DNA of 64,000 nt from Octopus vulgaris (Eukaryota), in assembly GCA_951406725.2 (NCBI GenBank), contig OX597820.1, forward strand, positions 63,922,001-63,986,000, in the 5' to 3' direction. Of the stretch, positions 2,168-53,600 are shown in pieces (position 1 is the first letter of the stretch; every line of letters starts with the position of its first letter). The translations under genes were made by a program, and so were the position numbers. The notes beneath the pieces were generated by a model. It saw only the letters and a program-made list of their open reading frames with translations, did no database searches and was not told the DNA's origin.

Positions 2168-2575
2168 GTCTGTCTGTCTGCCTGCCTATTGTGACACACG
2201 GCAGCAGACACATGCAAACATACATTGTTCATTCCTTTTTTATTTTTTCAATCTTTCACCATATTAGGTCGCCGAATTAAGTGTTAATTCGAGACGAAAC
2301 GATCCTTGTATATATTCCAGTTAGCATGCAATTCGCCGTGGTAATAAATTGAGTCAGTAGAGCAAAAATCAACCGTAACGAGACTACTCTGGTTATTACT
2401 TTGCTGTTTTCAAAAGGTGTCTATAAAACTGACACGCTGGAGAATTGCGACTGTTTCTCTAAGTAATCGTGTAGAAATGAAAAGTGGCTTGCTCGCTGCC
2501 GTCTTCAGGCATTCATTTAGGAAGTATTGAATATTCTGATACGCAATGGAGTTTAAAGTTTCCGTGATACTGGTG

Positions 2576-3171
2576 GTAGTAAGAATACGCCGTGAACGAG
2601 GTGTAGCAGGAATACACCGTGAACGAGGTGTAGTAAGAATACACCGTGAACAAGGTGTAGTGGGAATACACCGTGAACGAAGTGTAGTAGGTATACACCG
2701 TGAACGAAGTGTAGTTGGAATATACCGTGAACGAGGTGTAGTAAGAATACACCGTGAACGATGGGTAGTAGGAATACACCGTGAACGAGGTGTAGTAAGA
2801 ATACACTGCGAACGTGGTGTAATGGGAATACACCTTGAACGAGTTGTAGTAGGAATGCACCGTGAAAGAGGTGTCGTAAAAACACACCGTGAACGAAGTG
2901 TAGAAGGAATGCACCATGAACGAGGTGTAGTAGGAATACACAGTAAACGAGGTGTAGTAAAAGTACAGCGTGAACGATGTGTAGTAGGAATACAGCATGA
3001 ATGAGGTTTTGTGGGAATACACCGTGAATTAGGTGTAGTGAAAATACACCCTGAACGATGTGCGGTGGGAATACACCTTGAACGAGGTGTAGTAAGAATA
3101 CACTATGAAAGAGGTGTAGTGGGAATACACCGTGAACGAGGTGTAGTGGGAATACACCATGAACGAGGTGT
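2576..3171. repeat. 27-bp minisatellite, about 22 units (GAATACACCGTGAACGAGGTGTAGTAG)
   Basis: Unit is directly visible; gives IHRERGVVG and YSYYTSFTV repeats in the ORF track. Confidence 0.95.
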
Positions 3172-3289
3172 CATTAGTGTTACATTCGTGAGCAGTGCGT
3201 TGGTTTAGTGATGGGCATATGTAGGTTCGTGATAACATGGATGACTCATACGAACAATAATATATGCACGGGAGAGTTGCGGTTTGGCT

Positions 3290-17854: not shown

Positions 17855-17937
<83 letters not shown>

Positions 17938-18850
17938 CCAGGTTGGATTTCAACACCATCTTCACTCTTTATTTGATACATCTCGCTAACCTCGACTTTC
18001 ATTTCTCTGTGTAGAATATTATGCAGCAACAAAATCCCTAAATATCTATACCCACTACCGTTGGGTTCACGCACGGGTTCTCTCCTGATGGTAACCGCAG
18101 TCCTCTGCAGGATGCTTTCTTCCCTTATTTCATATGAAGTACTGAGCATTTGGTAATCCCTAATTGTATACCGATGTCCCTACCACACTTCTGGACTCTT
18201 TTGGTTAAGGAGTCTATCTGTCTTTCAGGTTTCCCAAACAATTTCAGAACATCCATAAACAGAAGATGGTTCAATGATTGGTCATTCTTCCAACATGGGT
18301 AAACCATCTTAACCCTCCCAAGTGTCATTCTTATGTGTTTTAGTGCAATTAGAAATAGTAACGGAGAAAACGAGTCACCTTAGAAGATGCTCCTTTTAAT
18401 ATTAACTTCTCCAAGGAATACATTACTTGAGTAAAATTTGGTTTTCCACTCTTTCATGCTATGCATCAGAAAATTTGTGATCTCAGCAACCCCAAACATC
18501 TGCAAGCTTTGAACGATCCAATAATGAGGCATCATATCATATGCCTTCTGAAAGTCAAACCAAGCTATATACATGTTTGTAGAAGAGCAGCTGATCCTTG
18601 GTAAGAACTCTTCCTACATCATTTTTGTTCCCGAGGTAGTATTTCTTCCTGTGCCAGGAAAGTGTATGTCTTTGCCACACATATTCATATGAGTATCGTT
18701 CAGATTATTATTAGGCATACTATGGGACGGTAGTTTCCCCACAATATTCCCCTTTCTTCTATCTTTCATTATAAGTGTTGTCCTCCGTGTCACCATCCAC
18801 GCGGAACTGTGCATTTATCGACACACTCATTCAATTTGTTTGCTAGCCTT
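17938..18850 (-). pseudogene. R4/Dong-clade non-LTR retrotransposon RT remnant (copy B)
   Basis: Frameshifted motifs WMVT.RTTLIMKD, AWFDFQKAYD..PH.WI, IKRSIF*GDSFSPLLF, HLLFMDVLKLF, G..LGITKC, YRYLGIL. Confidence 0.85.
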
Positions 18851-21100
18851 TCATTTATTCCCAGGTATTTGTAAGTTTGTTCCTGCTCGAGTTCTTTCAT
18901 GACTGTGTCAACAACAGATACCACTGAATGTGAGGTCTTCAATTTCTCTATCTGGAAAGTGGCCTTGGCATATTTATCAAGACCAAATTCATCACTAAAT
19001 GCTTTCACAGAACTTATTAGCCCTTCAATCGCATTATCGTCTTTGCCATAGAGTTTCAAGTCATCCATATAAAATAGACGAATTATTTTATTGTAGTCAA
19101 TATTATATCCATACCCTGTTCTGTTCAGTTCACTTGTAAGGGATATTGTGGCTATGCAACAAACTAAAGGTGAATGTGAGACACCTTGGAAAGTGCAGCA
19201 GTTGATATTAATAACCTTTGTGATCAGTACTCCATTAGGGAGGTACATTTGGAGATTCATATTCCACACGGACTTATTGTGTTTCAGGAAGTTTTAAACC
19301 ACAGGAGAAATTCTGAAGATATCCAGTGATTTCAAGATCCATAAATGTGGTATGCTGTCAAACGCCTTTTCATAATCCATGCAGAACTGAGATTTCTGCG
19401 TTTGTTATGACAGCTCATCAAGGACCATGCGACTGATTAAGAATGGGTCTTTGCATTCATATGAGCCTTCATAGTAACTTTTTTGTTCAGTGGGGGAAAA
19501 TATCGTTTTGTTCTATAAATTTGTGTGTTTACTCCACGAGGTTGGATATTAAATTTTATACGTGGTAGATAGACATGTTATGGGCCGATAGTTTTGGGGA
19601 AATTTGGTTTCATTATTCTTCGGGTGTAGATAAGTAATACCTCTAGCTAACTAATCGTATTTTCGTAGGATCTCTCATAATTTCATTGAATAACTGAACT
19701 AGTTTATCGTGTGCGCACGGGAGCGATGCGAGCAAGAGATTTTATCATTATCGGGGGATTTCAACTCTATGAGCCTTCATGAGAGTCATCCTTAGCTCTG
19801 CTATTGTGATGTCTTTCCATACTTATTCTGGTAAGTTTTGGTAAGATCCTTCAGTGCGTTTAATCCAGTCTGCATTATCACTGCAGATATTTTCCAAAGG
19901 TTTTCAGTTTCAATGGGAGTGGCGTCTTCAACTTTTTTCTCTTTCCCTATATCTTTGTAGAATTTTTTTCGTATTGGATGTGAACAGCTTATTATGCTTG
20001 TAAAACTTCCCTTCTGAAATTTTCGCATTCATTGAGTTTTTGCTTTGGACTTTTTGTGGCAGTTCTTCTCTTGGTGAGAATATGTTTTCTCTTCCTCTTT
20101 CTTCCTCTTCGGAATTTTACTTCGTTTTCACAGATTAGTTAGTTCAATATTGATATTTCGTCTCTTATTATTTCAATCTCCTTTCCAATTTTACTTTTCT
20201 AGTTTGGAATTATTCTCAGGTTTGCATTTGTTTGTTTTTCCGGAGGCATACAACCGGTTTCAATTGTCTTATCAGCTGCGTAAGTAATTTCGTCTAATTC
20301 AGTGAGATCTAGTTTTAGTTCTTGTATAATTTCTTTTGTTACATAGTTTCTAATTTTAATTTCTTTTCTATTTTGGATTGTATTTGAGAGTTTATGCAGT
20401 GCTTCTCTATCATGCATATTAGCTTGTCTTACAACAGCAAACGTATATAAGATTGTCTGCTTCATTTCTCTCATAGACTCTATGTTCTTCAGTAAATATA
20501 TAGTATTCAAATATTGTTTCTTTAACACATTCCTTGCTATCTTTATCAGGTTCATTACAACTTATTTCTTCGGACGTTTGCGTGTTCTGGTCAGATGCGA
20601 TTCGTGGGGAGTCGTTCTCTTCGTCTGGTTCTCCATTTCCTTTTCGTCTTATATCTAGGTCATTTTCCGTTACGTGATTGATCGCGGTTATTTCACTATC
20701 CTTCCTAATATTTGCTAACACGCTTTCGTCCAAATATAATCTGCTGTTTTGATTTTGTGTTCTTTATACTGCATAAGATTATGCGGTGAGTTTCTTTTGC
20801 GATGGCCCGCCTAATGCATTCCAATATGCGTATATTACCTCTCTATACTCTTCTCGGGTCCATTTGATTCTCTTCCCTTTTCTTTCTGTTGTGGGTGTAA
20901 TGGCCGACATGGAGGGCTCGGGTTGGGGCAGCTCCCGTTCAAATGACTATCTAGGTTCTTATTTAGAGGAGAGCTTGTGCTAGTGGATAACTTTTCGACC
21001 GCAGGCTGGGTTTTCTCCAGGGGGATGCACTACCAGATTAACCACAAGACAAGTGAATGTTCCGAAGTTACTGTTGGAGAGGCGTCTTACACACTATATC
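18851..21100 (-). pseudogene. R4/Dong-clade non-LTR retrotransposon, N-terminus through RT (copy A)
   Basis: N-terminal RIKWTREEYREVIYAYW..LANIRK, then YRPITCL, DYEKAFDSIPH, FQGVSHSPL, LFYMDDLKLY, FGLDK, YKYLGINE; many stops and frameshifts; 5' boundary approximate. Confidence 0.88.
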
Positions 21101-26078: not shown

Positions 26079-26253
26079 AAGAGAGAGCGAATGAGAAGGA
26101 GAGAGTAGAAGGAAGAGAGATATAGACGGCGGAATATATGAAAACACGGTGAGTTTTGCGTACACGTGGACAAACAACAATAACATAGAGAGAAATACAG
26201 AGATTAAATTATTGCCGATTTCAACAAACAAGAAAAACATTGGCGCCAAATTC

Positions 26254-26353
26254 NNNNNNNNNNNNNNNNNNNNNNNNNNNNNNNNNNNNNNNNNNNNNNN
26301 NNNNNNNNNNNNNNNNNNNNNNNNNNNNNNNNNNNNNNNNNNNNNNNNNNNNN
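26254..26353. other. Assembly gap (100 N) with TTGGCGCCAAATTC duplicated on both sides
   Basis: Directly visible. Confidence 0.98.
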
Positions 26354-27074
26354 TTGGCGCCAAATTCTTCTTTGGCCATTCAATTTATCCCTGTTCCACG
26401 GCCAACATAGTCTCGTTACATCAGCTACTTACGCGCATGACGCACAAAGAAATATACAGATCCAACGCAAATATACACGCAATGAGATATGTAATATCAA
26501 ATACAGTGTTATATATGTGAGGAGATGCAGTTTCCAAATACACACACTCCAAAATACGTAAATATGAACGCATACAAGAATAAGTGATAGACGTATGTAG
26601 ATATATTTACTGTCGCTCCACAATACGTGTTGATTGATACGCAAGTATCCTTATGTAGGTATGAGTGTATACGTGTGTATGCATGAGTGTGTTGTGTGCG
26701 TATATATTTATATGCATGTATATACTGTACAAATTCCCATACATACTTAGATTCATACATGCAATCATATATATATATATATATATATATACAATATGTT
26801 ACATTACTCGGTAGTCAAGATAAAACTCTGAGTTTCAGATGCCGAAGTGGAAATCCACAACACCATCTCTTCGGTTATCTGGCTATTTGAAAACGTTATG
26901 AAAAAATACCGTTAAAAATGAAGGGAAATTACTCTGTTATAACTCTGCTTTGCCTGCGTACTTATACATCGCTCGCATTTTTCGTCATAAAAATTATATA
27001 AAAATACATAAAAATATATAAAAATATATAAAAATATATAAAATCTTCTTGGGACATAACACAGAAAGCATGTT

Positions 27075-27788
27075 CTATCCGTTTTCTTTAGGGGACCAAA
27101 AACGTAACAGAAATTTAGTCACATGTGGGCATGATCCGAAAAGTTCTGTCCTTGTATTTAGACATGTGGTAGGGTCTAAGCTGCTTTTCCAGATAAGCCA
27201 TCTCTCCATGTCGCATAAACCGCACCTTCCGCTGCCGTTAGTATAGGGCTTACATCTGGCCAAAATCTTCCATTGTATGTTATAATCGACACCTTTATCT
27301 CTTAAAGACCAAATATGATTGGATAATTGTGTCGCTTTTCTTTGTTCCAGTGCCTAAAGCTCCAAGTGTGGTTATTGAACCTGGCCTTGAAATTACCCTC
27401 TGCCAGGCCCACGTATTTCTTCGTCAAAACGGTGTCTTTAGTGGTTATAGAGTTTACGGTAGCTTCATATATGATGGTCTTGGACATGCAAGCTCCATTT
27501 AGCGGGCACAATTCTTTATTCCTGCATGAACAGCTGTTTTCTTCTTGTGTTTTTTGTATGTTATGATTGATTATGTTTTTAAAAATTGGTAGTTGAACTA
27601 AAACTAATTTTTAAATTGTGTCTATTGAAGAGTTTCCTATAAGCATGGTTAACTGGAAAATGTCTATCTATCAGTGCTAGGAAATATTTACCTATATTGA
27701 AGGCCACCTCGGGTGAGTAAGGGGGCGTAAAGCAGATGACCTTTTTATTTCTATTATTCCTTTTCCTTATTGTTGGGCTGGTAAACAT
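27075..27788 (-). pseudogene. Frameshifted copy of the Penelope GIY-YIG region
   Basis: Three consecutive ORFs (27579-27788, 27302-27511, 27075-27263) reproduce the plus-strand protein with one +1 and one -1 indel. Confidence 0.9.
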
Positions 27789-28449
27789 CTGGTTTACGCC
27801 CCCTTACTCACCCGAGGTGGCCTTCAATATAGGTAAATATTTCCTAGCACTGATAGATAGACATTTTCCAGTTAACCATGCTTATAGGAAACTCTTCAAT
27901 AGACACAATTTAAAAATTAGTTTTAGTTCAACTACCAATTTTAAAAACATAATCAATCATAACATACATAAAACACAAGAAGAAAACAGCTGTTCATGCA
28001 GGAATAAAGAATTGTGCCCGCTAAATGGAGCTTGCATGTCCAAGACCATCATATATGAAGCTACCGTAAACTCTATAACCACTAAAGACACCGTTTTGAC
28101 GAAGAAATACGTGGGCCTGACAGAGGGTAATTTCAAGGCCAGGTTCAATAACCACACTTTGAGCTTTAGGCACTGGAACAAAAGAAAAGCGACACAATTA
28201 TCCAATCATATTTGGTCTTTAAGAGATAAAGGTGTCGATTATAACATACAATGGAAGATTTTGGCCAGATGTAAGCCCTATACTAACGGCAGCGGAAGGT
28301 GCGGTTTATGCGACATGGAGAGATGGCTTATCTGGAAAAGCAGCTTAGACCCTACCACATGTCTAAATACAAGGACAGAACTTTTCGGATCATGCCCACA
28401 TGTGACTAAATTTCTGTTACGTTTTTGGTCCCCTAAAGAAAACGGATAG
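27736..28449 (+). CDS. Penelope-like element C-terminal linker plus GIY-YIG endonuclease (237 aa, RT missing)
   Basis: IWFTPPYS..NIG..FL, CSCRNKELCPLNGAC, IIY...KYVG.T..FKARFNNH, CGLC..E, LNTRTE...CPH. Most consistent with the Hydra clade as I recall it. Confidence 0.85.
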   Translation: MTFLFLLFLFLIVGLVNIWFTPPYSPEVAFNIGKYFLALIDRHFPVNHAYRKLFNRHNLKISFSSTTNFKNIINHNIHKTQEENSCSCRNKELCPLNGACMSKTIIYEATVNSITTKDTVLTKKYVGLTEGNFKARFNNHTLSFRHWNKRKATQLSNHIWSLRDKGVDYNIQWKILARCKPYTNGSGRCGLCDMERWLIWKSSLDPTTCLNTRTELFGSCPHVTKFLLRFWSPKENG

Positions 28450-28643
28450 AACATGCTTTCTGTGTTATGTCCCAAGAAGATTTTATATATTTTTATATAT
28501 TTTTATATATTTTTATGTATTTTTATATAATTTTTATGACGAAAAATGCGAGCGATGTATAAGTACGCAGGCAAAGCAGAGTTATAACAGAGTAATTTCC
28601 CTTCATTTTTAACGGTATTTTTTCATAACGTTTTCAAATAGCC

Positions 28644-28706
28644 AGATAACCGAAGAGATGGTGTTGTGGATTTCCACTTCGGCATCTGAAACTCAGAGTT
28701 TTATCT
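28644..28706 (+). ncRNA. Type I hammerhead-like ribozyme motif (variant core); mirror copy 26818-26880 (-)
   Basis: AGATAA-CCGAAGA-GATG..GTGG/CCAC..CATC-T-GAAAC-TCAGA-GTT-TTATCT. Confidence 0.6.
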
Positions 28707-29001
28707 TGACTACCGAGTAATGTAACATATTGTATAGATAAATTTCCTCTATTTACATAATATTGAGGTCTCTTTCTTTCTTTTGTTATCTTACCGTTTT
28801 ATCAATATATATATATATATATATATATATAAGTATATATATATATGTGTGTATATAGATACATATATACATGCATATATACATATATGTATGTATATAT
28901 ATATATGTGTGTATCTATATTTATATGCGTATATATATATGTATTTGTGTGTGTATATATATGCATATATATATATATGTATATGTGTGTGTGTGCATAT
29001 A

Positions 29002-30769: not shown

Positions 30770-30851
<82 letters not shown>

Positions 30852-30875
30852 ATATATGTATGTATGTATATAGGA

Positions 30876-31029
30876 AGTGTTGTAAGTAGCTTGCTTACCA
30901 ACCCCATGGTTCCAGGTTCATTACCACTGCGTGGCACCTTGGGCAAGTGTCTTCTACTATAGCCTCGGGCCGACAAAACCTTGTGGGTGGATTTGGTAGG
31001 CGGAAACTGAAAGAAGCCCGTCGTATATA

Positions 31030-31092
<63 letters not shown>

Positions 31093-31307
31093 GTGTATGT
31101 GTTTGTGCTTGTTCCTCCAACATCGGTTGACAACCGAAGGTGGTGTGTTTATGTCCCCGTAACTTAGCGGCTCGGCAAAAAAGACCGATAGAATAAGTAC
31201 TAGGCTTACAAGGAATAAATCCTGGGGTCAATTTGCTCGAATAAAGGCGGTGCTTCAGCATGGCCATAGTGAAATGACTGAAACAAGTAAAAGTGAGTAA
31301 AGAGAGT
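30876..31307 (+). mobile_element. Family A SINE (tRNA head, CORE-like domain, internal (TA)n/(TG)n, RTE-like tail)
   Basis: GGCACCTTGGGCAAGTGTCTT core and AAGGCGGTGCT.CAGCATGGCC..AATGACTGAAACAAGTAAAAG tail; many copies in the window. Confidence 0.88.
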
Positions 31308-33112: not shown

Positions 33113-33343
33113 TTTGTTTTAGTAATTTTGAGTACGGCCATGCTGGAGTGCCGCCTTTAGTCGAACATATCGACCCAACGACTTATTCGTTGTAAGCGTA
33201 GTACTTATTCTACCCGTGTCTGTTGCCGAACCGCTAAGTTACGGGGACGTAAACATACCAACATCGGTTGTTAAGTGATGGTCGGAGGGACAAAAACAGA
33301 CACACAAACATACACACACACACACGCACACACACACGAAGAA

Positions 33344-33378
<35 letters not shown>

Positions 33379-33522
33379 CGACGGGCTTCTTTCAGTTCCC
33401 GTCTACCAAATCTAATCCCAAGGAGGCTATAGTAGAAGTCAATCGCCCAAGGTGCCACAGTGGGACTGAACCCGCAACCATGTGGTTAGAAAGCAAGCTT
33501 CTTACCATATAGACACGCTGCG

Positions 33523-33525
<3 letters not shown>
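33113..33525 (-). mobile_element. Family A SINE
   Basis: Reverse complement matches 30876-31307. Confidence 0.85.
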
Positions 33526-33570
<45 letters not shown>

Positions 33571-33588
33571 TAGATGGATAGATAGATT

Positions 33589-33657
<69 letters not shown>

Positions 33658-37863: not shown

Positions 37864-37931
<68 letters not shown>

Positions 37932-37933
<2 letters not shown>

Positions 37934-38705
37934 ATTATTATAGATATAGGGTAAAAAATTATTAATTTATAATTAATAAATTTCACCAAGTAGTTTCAGT
38001 ATGGAAAGGAACCATATTCGGTAAAAACTTATACGAGAAGTTTTATATATTATTTATAGCAATAATTAAGGGTTTAGCAACGAGTTGCTTGACCACATAC
38101 TGAAACCCCTTAATTATTGTTATAATTATATATAAAACTTCTTGTATAGGTTTTTACCGAATAATGTTCCTTTCCATACCGAAACTACTTGGTGAAATTT
38201 ATTAATTATAAATTAATAATTTTTTACCCTATATCTATAATAATTATTTTACTCCCTGATAACAGGAAAAGCTGCGGATCTATTTTCTGCAGTACTATCT
38301 CGTGACGCACATGGTGTAGGAATTGGTGGGAAATATGAATTTCACACGTCTGTATAAATTCGGATATGCTAACTACCTCGTGTGATGTTCTGATGTTCTG
38401 ATGTCGCTTGGTCAGAAATGTAAAGGGTAAGTTTTCTAGCATTTTTCAATTTATAACTATCGGAATATTATGTTGATAAGGAAACGAGTTTTATAACTCT
38501 AATCCAGAAACGCGTCCATAATTAACCGAAGACTGTTTGATTTCATTATTTTCCTTCTTTTTGCCTGTGTGAGTTACAGAGAGGGTTGTCTGTGGAGTCA
38601 TATTTTGTAGCGAAAAGAAATAGCGGCATTTTGCCTGCTATTTCTAAATTTTTCGGTATGTGGTTAAGCAACTCGTTGCTAAACCCTTAATTATTGTTAT
38701 AATTG
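37932..38705. mobile_element. Penelope-type remnant: palindrome 37932-38247, decayed hammerhead 38467-38522, third partial repeat 38650-38702
   Basis: ~145-bp inverted arms; TATG-TTGATAA-GGA..TCC-A-GAAACGCGTC-CATA; flanked by (TA)n. Confidence 0.7.
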
Positions 38706-52991: not shown

Positions 52992-53106
52992 ACTCTCTCT
53001 TTCTCTCTCTCTTTTTCTCTCTCTTATGTATCTGCGCTGAACAATTTAAGAACAAAGATTTCCAAGCAAATCGAATTAAATTTATTCAAGACGCCTACCT
53101 ATCATC

Positions 53107-53600
53107 ATGATCGTAACTTCAGAGAAAGGAAAAATCAAAGTGGTCGATCAAGAAAATTATATATACACAAAAAATAAGCAGCATGCAGATGTATTGAAGA
53201 TATACTGGAGGTGTGAAAATCGTGAGTGCAAGGCGAGACTTCATACAAATGAAAATTATAAAGAGCTGAAGAAGATTAGGATCCATAATCACGCTTCAAC
53301 TGCTGCAGTGTTAAATGCAAGGATAATAGTTTCAAATATCAAAGTAAAGTCTATTTCATCTCGTGATGCTCCTCGCTCAGATATCGCTAGTGAAGTTCAG
53401 AATTTAAACGACTGTACGTTGTCGCAAATACCTCCGTTTGCACAGCTTAGTATGAATTTTAGCCGTTAGAGTCAAGCTGATTCCAACTATCCTGCTACCC
53501 CACCTACAAATGTTGGCTTTTCCATTCCAAGTGGATACTCTTAATTTGACAATGATGAAATGTTTTTACAGTTTGACAACAGCCAGAGACGATCAGCTAT
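53107..53600 (+). pseudogene. FLYWCH-domain Mutator-like (Phantom-type) transposase 5' fragment
   Basis: SEKGK..YIY....YWRC....CKARL..HNH; continues in frame past stops to EMFLQFD, then truncated by microsatellite. Confidence 0.8.

What the first reader, a model, noticed from the sequence alone, without database searches (positions are those of the whole stretch)
26788..28804. Young 1.95-kb palindrome of head-to-head Penelope endonuclease copies
Seen: 951-bp arms, 47-bp spacer, about six differences by eye (four substitutions, two single-base indels), no RT, inserted in (TA)n, with CATCTG/CAGATG homology at the inversion point. Known: Penelope-like elements form inverted 5'-truncated insertions. 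Inference: a fold-back or template-switch product whose read-through transcript would form ~950 bp of dsRNA, a source of siRNA or substrate for ADAR editing against its own family.
Basis: partly seen in the sequence, partly recalled or inferred. Interest (0 to 1): 0.7.

Follow-up and report, generated by a model that had tools for sequence, protein, structure and literature searches.

The report
Ordinary two-armed Penelope retrotransposon insertion
This 2-kb DNA palindrome is a truncated insertion of a young jumping gene whose copies sit head to head at two thirds of sampled sites, likely because both cut target strands copy one RNA, and any silencing role for it is untested.

Summary
The palindrome is real: 951-bp arms, 4 substitutions, 2 one-base indels. 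It is two 5'-truncated copies of a young 2,590-bp Penelope-like element (708-aa RT plus endonuclease ORF, Hydra-clade motifs) in (TA)n. Corrections: the 47-bp 'spacer' is 44 bp of element plus AAA; CATCTG is only the inner arm end, not junction microhomology; the right arm has a 71-bp tail. The form is the family default. The genome has 1,299 tailed and 1,036 tail-less exact ends; 66 of 99 unselected loci are head-to-head with one end of each kind, and 17 of 99 have stems of 900 bp or more. Arms share alleles (28 of 30 loci at one site), so they come from one source. Either arm can reach further 5', which argues against simple fold-back. Best model (inferred): both nicked target strands prime reverse transcription on one RNA at two fixed sites, as in vitro work on another Penelope-like element suggests. 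Transcription, siRNA and editing of this locus are untested; 280 genomic segments show no A-to-G excess. The architecture is published, and this scan noted the same pairing on other DNA.

The parts
26767..26791 (.). Left (TA)n target; the last TATA is shared with the element end
26788..27782 (-). Left arm: 5'-truncated copy, reference 1524-2519, ending at the tail-less site; endonuclease frame broken by two one-base indels
27739..27782 (-). Unpaired inner 44 nt of the left arm (most of the 'spacer'); element sequence 1524-1567
27783..27785 (.). Head-to-head junction: 3 non-element bases (AAA), no microhomology
27786..28807 (+). Right arm: 5'-truncated copy, reference 1568-2590, ending at the tailed site
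27787..28449 (+). Last 220 codons of the element ORF: CxCx5C linker, GIY-YIG endonuclease, CxxC and CxH motifs
   Evidence: (Pfam GIY-YIG E=0.022, below the curated cut-off)
28644..28706 (+). Hammerhead-like motif in the pLTR, laid out like the Hydra-1_oBim motif but with core CCGAAGAG (U4C); activity untested
   Evidence: no hammerhead hit in Rfam; not the lowest-energy fold
26818..26880 (-). Mirror copy of the hammerhead-like motif in the left arm
   Evidence: outer 553 bp of the arms identical
28737..28807 (+). 71-nt tail between the two recurrent 3' ends; right arm only
28805..28831 (.). Right (TA)n target

Best explanation
This is a non-coding, 5'-truncated insertion of a young Hydra-type Penelope-like retrotransposon, likely made when both nicked strands of a (TA)n target primed reverse transcription on one element RNA. 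Shown: two arms of the same family, one ending at the tailed site (reference 2590) and one at the tail-less site (2519-2523), joined head to head by 3 extra bases. Inferred: the element's RT-endonuclease protein, probably a dimer, nicks both strands; one 3' end starts at each of the two fixed sites, 67-71 nt apart; both cDNAs stop near the same point (here 1568 and 1524) and are joined by end joining. The palindrome is likely a by-product with no selected function at this locus. A read-through transcript would form a hairpin, as would hundreds of sister loci.
For: End polarity: 66 of 99 unselected C1 loci anchored on a tailed end have an inverted arm that ends at the tail-less site; 31 have no inverted arm of 22 nt or more, 2 are other. 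No tailed-tailed and no tailless-tailless pair among 100 + 69 exact ends; of 18 unpaired tail-less ends fetched, 5 had a tailed inverted partner and 13 none of 25 nt or more. One source: arms agree at site 2162 in 28 of 30 loci (0.64 expected), 2244 in 33 of 33, 2138 in 30 of 30, 1536 in 13 of 13; 81 of 92 minor-allele observations shared against a permutation mean of 10%. Two products: the tail-less arm reaches further 5' in 25 of 66, the tailed arm in 27, within 10 nt in 14; in 5 of 66 the tailed arm stops at 2525-2548, just short of the second site, so the arms do not overlap. In vitro, the anole Poseidon protein cleaves and extends both strands, starts at two adjacent internal sites that bound the tail, and is predicted to be a dimer (PMC11167929). 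Both ends here read ...TATA...GATA or ...CAATA and could pair with a (TA)n primer (sequence; inference).
Against: Near-equal inner ends are in excess (8 of 38 long-armed loci within 50 nt, 2.0 expected, p=0.0005), which fold-back predicts equally well. The allele counts are not independent: four older-subfamily loci give 58 of the 81 shared observations. Shared alleles could also come from two RNAs of one source locus or from later conversion between arms. L070, L156 and L048 differ between arms at diagnostic sites. L040 in the similarity-selected set is tailed at both ends (1 of 35). In vitro the start site did not differ between strands and had no homology to the target. No insertion intermediate was observed here.
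Confidence: 0.6

Rival explanations
1. Fold-back or self-priming: one cDNA stops, its 3' end primes on itself or switches to the new strand, and the hairpin is opened off-centre or trimmed later.
For: Excess of near-symmetric junctions (29 of 66 overall, 7.8 expected); arms share 22 locus-private substitutions; proposed for head-to-head Penelope repeats in PMC3846280 (passages).
Against: A copy of the tailed arm cannot hold sequence further 5' than that arm (25 of 66 loci, and this one, by 44 nt); a copy of the tail-less arm cannot hold the tail; 5 loci have non-overlapping arms; no microhomology at this junction. It needs a second deletion step at many loci.
Confidence: 0.25
2. Two RNA molecules from the same source copy, one per RT subunit, each primed at one target strand.
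For: Explains polarity, either-arm-longer and most allele sharing; L070, L156 and L048 have discordant diagnostic sites.
Against: Does not explain correlated stop points at internal sites (8 of 38 against 2.0) or tailed arms that stop just before the second start site.
Confidence: 0.1
3. The locus is an assembly or read fold-back artefact near a gap.
For: Gap 434 bp away. No listed contig spans the centre (32 of 15,594 pieces shown). Differences cluster near the centre, and near-symmetric loci carry more indels (18 in 8,426 against 17 in 24,840 bases), which suggests consensus errors.
Against: The mirror stops at the family's tail-less site and the flanks differ; the centre is asymmetric; the same form recurs at 66 of 99 loci. 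Contigs of three DNA or unlabelled runs from three studies hold other head-to-head joints of this family, and single-copy contigs cover 26360-26753 at depth 31-46.
Confidence: 0.03
4. This locus is a functional hairpin-RNA source that silences or edits its own family.
For: A transcript would pair over 965 bp (predicted -1732 kcal/mol; trivial for any such palindrome). Rotifer Penelope copies give small RNAs (PMC3846280 passages).
Against: Hundreds of loci have equal stems. Rare A>G and T>C rates in genomic copies are equal (4.5 and 4.3 per 10,000) and none of 280 segments is A>G-rich; this tests only edits that were re-inserted, not transcripts. The ORF scan found no host exon near it (44 of 109 ORFs scanned; short exons would be missed).
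Confidence: 0.07

Closest known systems
Hydra clade of C-terminal EN+ Penelope-like elements (Craig et al. 2021, PMC8557442); nearest named family Hydra-1_Obim, 2,507 bp, (TA)n
   Same: Under 3 kb, one ORF, RWK, DKT, CxCx5C, CxxC and CxH, no CCHH, (TA)n target; same hammerhead layout with a 4-bp stem III and 1-nt loop. The RT part resembles Hydra-1_Obim by eye only.
   Different: Clear pLTR tandems here (146 exact junctions), whereas Hydra-1_Obim is listed as 'no pLTR'; hammerhead core CCGAAGAG against CTGAAGAG; no identity or tree computed against named members.
Inverted, 5'-truncated PLE insertions with a one-sided tail (PMC3846280; PMC8557442 Fig. 2 legend)
   Same: Head-to-head arms, tail at one end, partial tandems, microsatellite target.
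   Different: Tail is 67-71 nt, not 30-40; arms here are about 1 kb and include coding sequence; strict one-tailed, one-tail-less pairing is counted here.
Poseidon of Anolis carolinensis in vitro (Frangieh et al. 2024, PMC11167929)
   Same: Two internal RT start sites that bound the tail; both strands nicked and extended; AT-rich target.
   Different: Other clade; its start sites lie inside the ORF start and lack target homology, here they lie in the 3' UTR and end in TA-like bases.
L1 twin priming (recalled, from no call)
   Same: Works like it: both target strands prime on one RNA and the cDNAs join head to head.
   Different: The second site is fixed and the arms usually overlap, giving a duplication; not an L1.

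Membership tests
Hydra-clade PLE | Single ORF, RT with C-terminal GIY-YIG endonuclease, element under 3 kb | tested here: met
   2,590-bp unit, 708-aa ORF with YKDD and C-terminal endonuclease. Pfam support is weak: GIY-YIG E=0.022 on the window protein, no hit on the full ORF.
Hydra-clade PLE | RWK and DKT motifs | tested here: met
   RWK at 46, DKT at 123 of P0002; in 91 and 119 of 120 homologues
Hydra-clade PLE | CxCx5C linker; CxxC and CxH around the conserved E and N | tested here: met
   C566-C568-C574, C669xxC672, E675, N691, C700-P-H702; 119, 118 and 118 of 120 homologues
Hydra-clade PLE | No CCHH motif, no Cx2-5CxxC finger | tested here: met
   No Cys between IIY (585-587) and YVG (605-607); no Cx2-5CxxC match in the query
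Hydra-clade PLE | Insertion in (TA)n | tested here: met
   Both flanks here and most flanks of 35 loci not chosen for flank
Hydra-clade PLE | Canonical hammerhead ribozyme in the pLTR | tested here: inconclusive
   Motif with U4C and an uncertain stem II register; variable base at N7 (8 of 203 segments); no Rfam hammerhead hit; lowest-energy fold differs
Hydra-clade PLE | RT or endonuclease tree placement with named members | not tested
EN+ PLE insertion architecture | pLTR partial tandems, inverted 5'-truncated copy, one-sided tail | tested here: met
EN+ PLE insertion architecture | Target-site duplication | not testable with these tools
   Target is pure (TA)n and no empty allele was available
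Hairpin-RNA (siRNA or ADAR substrate) locus | Read-through transcription, small RNAs or A-to-I edits from this locus | not testable with these tools
   Only contigs were served; no run on record as RNA

The most novel reading that the evidence does not exclude
Penelope-like elements of this clade insert by a polar two-site twin priming: one protein dimer on one RNA uses one fixed start site per target strand, so most insertions are born as palindromes, and the family thereby seeds hundreds of long hairpin-RNA loci that trigger its own silencing.
Probability: 0.25. Interest if true: 0.6.

Novelty: new member of a known kind. Interest (0 to 1): 0.3.

Why it matters
The locus itself is ordinary debris. 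The family is useful: over 1,000 very young insertions give counts that bear on an open question, how Penelope-like elements make inverted repeats. They link the two in vitro start sites to a strict one-tail-per-insertion rule and give clear predictions for marked-RNA assays. Searches for 'Penelope' with 'twin priming' (3 papers, listing only, none on this by title) and 'Penelope-like', 'head-to-head', 'pLTR' (1 paper) found no such count in the held library, which lacks most subscription papers.

Tried and rejected
No RNA holder listed for the stretch; no evidence either way. Run X13, only guessed to be RNA, holds family sequence and has no cover on the unique left flank; not used as evidence. 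Reads were laid on 26360-28830 only, as contigs, so the centre junction, the right flank junction and an empty allele stay untested. Rfam gave only AT-repeat miRNA look-alikes far below their thresholds. Pfam found nothing on the full ORF. The place look-up of earlier notes was empty. Rejected: foreign spacer, junction microhomology, dating by arm differences, a link to the gap. Rows dropped: L097 (same locus as L096) from 100 to 99; the leftmost piece of L098 (a separate, other-subfamily insertion 70 nt away); L084 and L098 from the allele test (58 pairs); four loci of the first set that repeat C1 loci; one of 19 unpaired tail-less ends, which lies inside L076; L040, L045, L059, L070 from the difference-position count. 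The 66 of 99 is a lower bound: L079 shows an inverted arm at relaxed identity. The exact end patterns select young copies, and the census covers C1 bases 1-210 Mb only.

Full report
Observation. The inverted repeat is present. Arms 26788-27738 and 27786-28736 differ by 4 substitutions and 2 one-base indels, all in the inner 400 bp; the outer 553 bp are identical. Both sides abut (TA)n. A 100-N gap lies 434 bp to the left.

The family. The right arm has 1,621 candidates in the 2.8-Gb genome, the best 40 at 99-100% identity. Longer stretches show a 2,590-bp unit with a 708-aa ORF, found in perfect tandems; I used one real copy, L048:5914-8503, as reference. The protein has RWK, DKT, YKDD, CxCx5C, CxxC and CxH and lacks CCHH, and these motifs hold in most of 120 unnamed homologues at 40-52% identity. 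They match the Hydra clade as described in section 11 of PMC8557442. The nearest named family is Hydra-1_Obim (by eye, no tree).

Anatomy. In reference coordinates the locus is [2519<1524] AAA [1568>2590]. The 'spacer' is the left arm's extra 44 nt plus 3 bases, and the right arm has a 71-nt tail. CATCTG is the start of the right arm, not an overlap. Neither arm has the RT core; the left arm's endonuclease frame is broken. Each arm has a hammerhead-like motif laid out like that of Hydra-1_oBim but with C at position 4; Rfam does not detect it and it is not the lowest-energy fold.

How common. Exact patterns find 1,299 tailed ends, 1,036 tail-less ends and 146 tandem junctions (reversed controls 0). 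I fetched the first 100 tailed ends on C1, 99 distinct loci. Of these 66 have an inverted arm that ends at the tail-less site, 31 have none of 22 nt or more, 2 are other; 24 have stems of 500 bp or more, 17 of 900 or more, and 4 have stems over 800 bp with inner ends within 50 nt. Scaled up, that is about 220 (134-339) and 50 (14-130) loci. L035 is longer and tighter than this one (1.8-kb arms, 10-nt offset). In the similarity-selected set 27 of 35 have one end of each kind and 1 is tailed at both. Published work describes this form: inverted 5'-truncated copy and a tail at one end (PMC3846280 passages; PMC8557442 passages).

Mechanism. Arms of one locus share alleles: 28 of 30, 17 of 18, 33 of 33, 30 of 30 and 13 of 13 loci at five sites; 15 of 19 informative loci share a minor allele and 4 do not. 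Both arms therefore come from one source, though conversion after insertion cannot be excluded and four loci dominate the pooled count. Either arm can reach further 5' (25, 27, 14 tied), and in 5 loci the tailed arm stops just short of the second end site. A fold-back copy cannot contain sequence its template lacks, so pure fold-back needs an extra deletion in at least 25 of 66 loci and here. Inner ends are closer than chance (8 of 38 against 2.0), which fits a shared RNA end and also fits fold-back. In vitro, an anole Penelope-like protein nicks and extends both strands and starts at two internal sites that bound the tail (PMC11167929, parts 1-2 of 4 read). I infer twin priming on one RNA followed by end joining (0.6), with fold-back plus trimming the main rival (0.25). 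Inner ends cluster at 2400-2439 (40 of 174), just before the hammerhead-like motif, likely an RNA 5' end; 4 of 17 upstream pLTRs start at 2490-2500, shortly after the predicted cleavage site at 2483, a weak hint only.

Artefact. Canonical ends, different flanks and an asymmetric centre argue that the locus is real. Contigs of runs from three studies hold other head-to-head joints of the family and cover the left flank at single-copy depth, but no listed piece spans this centre. Some arm differences may be consensus errors.

RNA role. A transcript would form a 965-bp stem, but transcription could not be tested. Genomic copies show no A>G excess over T>C and none of 280 segments from 149 stretches is A>G-rich; exact-pattern anchoring could miss heavily edited copies. 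Any silencing trigger would be a family property, not special to this site.

Earlier notes. After recording my reading, I found that this scan had reached the same architecture and one-RNA model on other DNA, including elsewhere in this genome. These are unreviewed notes and add no support.

Papers seen: PMC3846280 passages; PMC8557442 passages, section 11 and supplement rows; PMC4209133 part 1 of 4 and passages; PMC11167929 parts 1-2 of 4; all others as search listings only. Supplement figures S2, S7 and S8 of PMC8557442 were seen only in part and bear on the clade call.

Verdict. Real, correctly identified, ordinary for its family. New member of a known kind; interest 0.3, for the family-level counts and not for this locus.

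Noticed in passing
window 27736-28449 +: The junction puts an ATG and a hydrophobic stretch from the antisense left arm in frame with the endonuclease domain, a 237-codon chimeric ORF; likely chance.
   Followed up: no
window 26240-26367: The same 14 bases stand on both sides of the 100-N gap, so the two contig ends probably overlap and little or nothing is missing.
   Followed up: partly
L071, L072, L082, L091, L120, L126, L127, L142, L143, L146, L150, L160: About 270-bp mini-palindromes whose arms both start at reference 2412-2426, each with a different junction, so they arose independently.
   Followed up: partly
L049 / G000:C1:57.21-57.22 Mb and G000:C3:37.226-37.238 Mb: Arrays of three or more full 2,590-bp units with an inverted block; suggests a multimeric or circular RNA template.
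   Followed up: no
L140 and L048: Where tandem copies differ, the inverted arm shares a private base with the upstream copy in L140 and with the downstream copy in L048.
   Followed up: no
window 37931-38247: A second, AT-rich 317-bp palindrome, 88% self-complementary, unrelated to this family by BLAST; possibly a MITE or an older stub.
   Followed up: no
window 17934-20763 -: Decayed non-LTR retrotransposon fragments with RVT_1 matches (best E=6.7e-07).
   Followed up: no
window 53080-53466 +: ORF with a FLYWCH zinc finger (E=5e-09), probably from a DNA transposon.
   Followed up: no
window 30773-31286 and 33114-33624: Older inverted pair of a dispersed repeat, 74% alike, with further copies at 43.4 and 47.0 kb.
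   Followed up: no
window 2541-3174: Tandem repeat array with offsets in multiples of 27 bp, about 82% alike.
   Followed up: no
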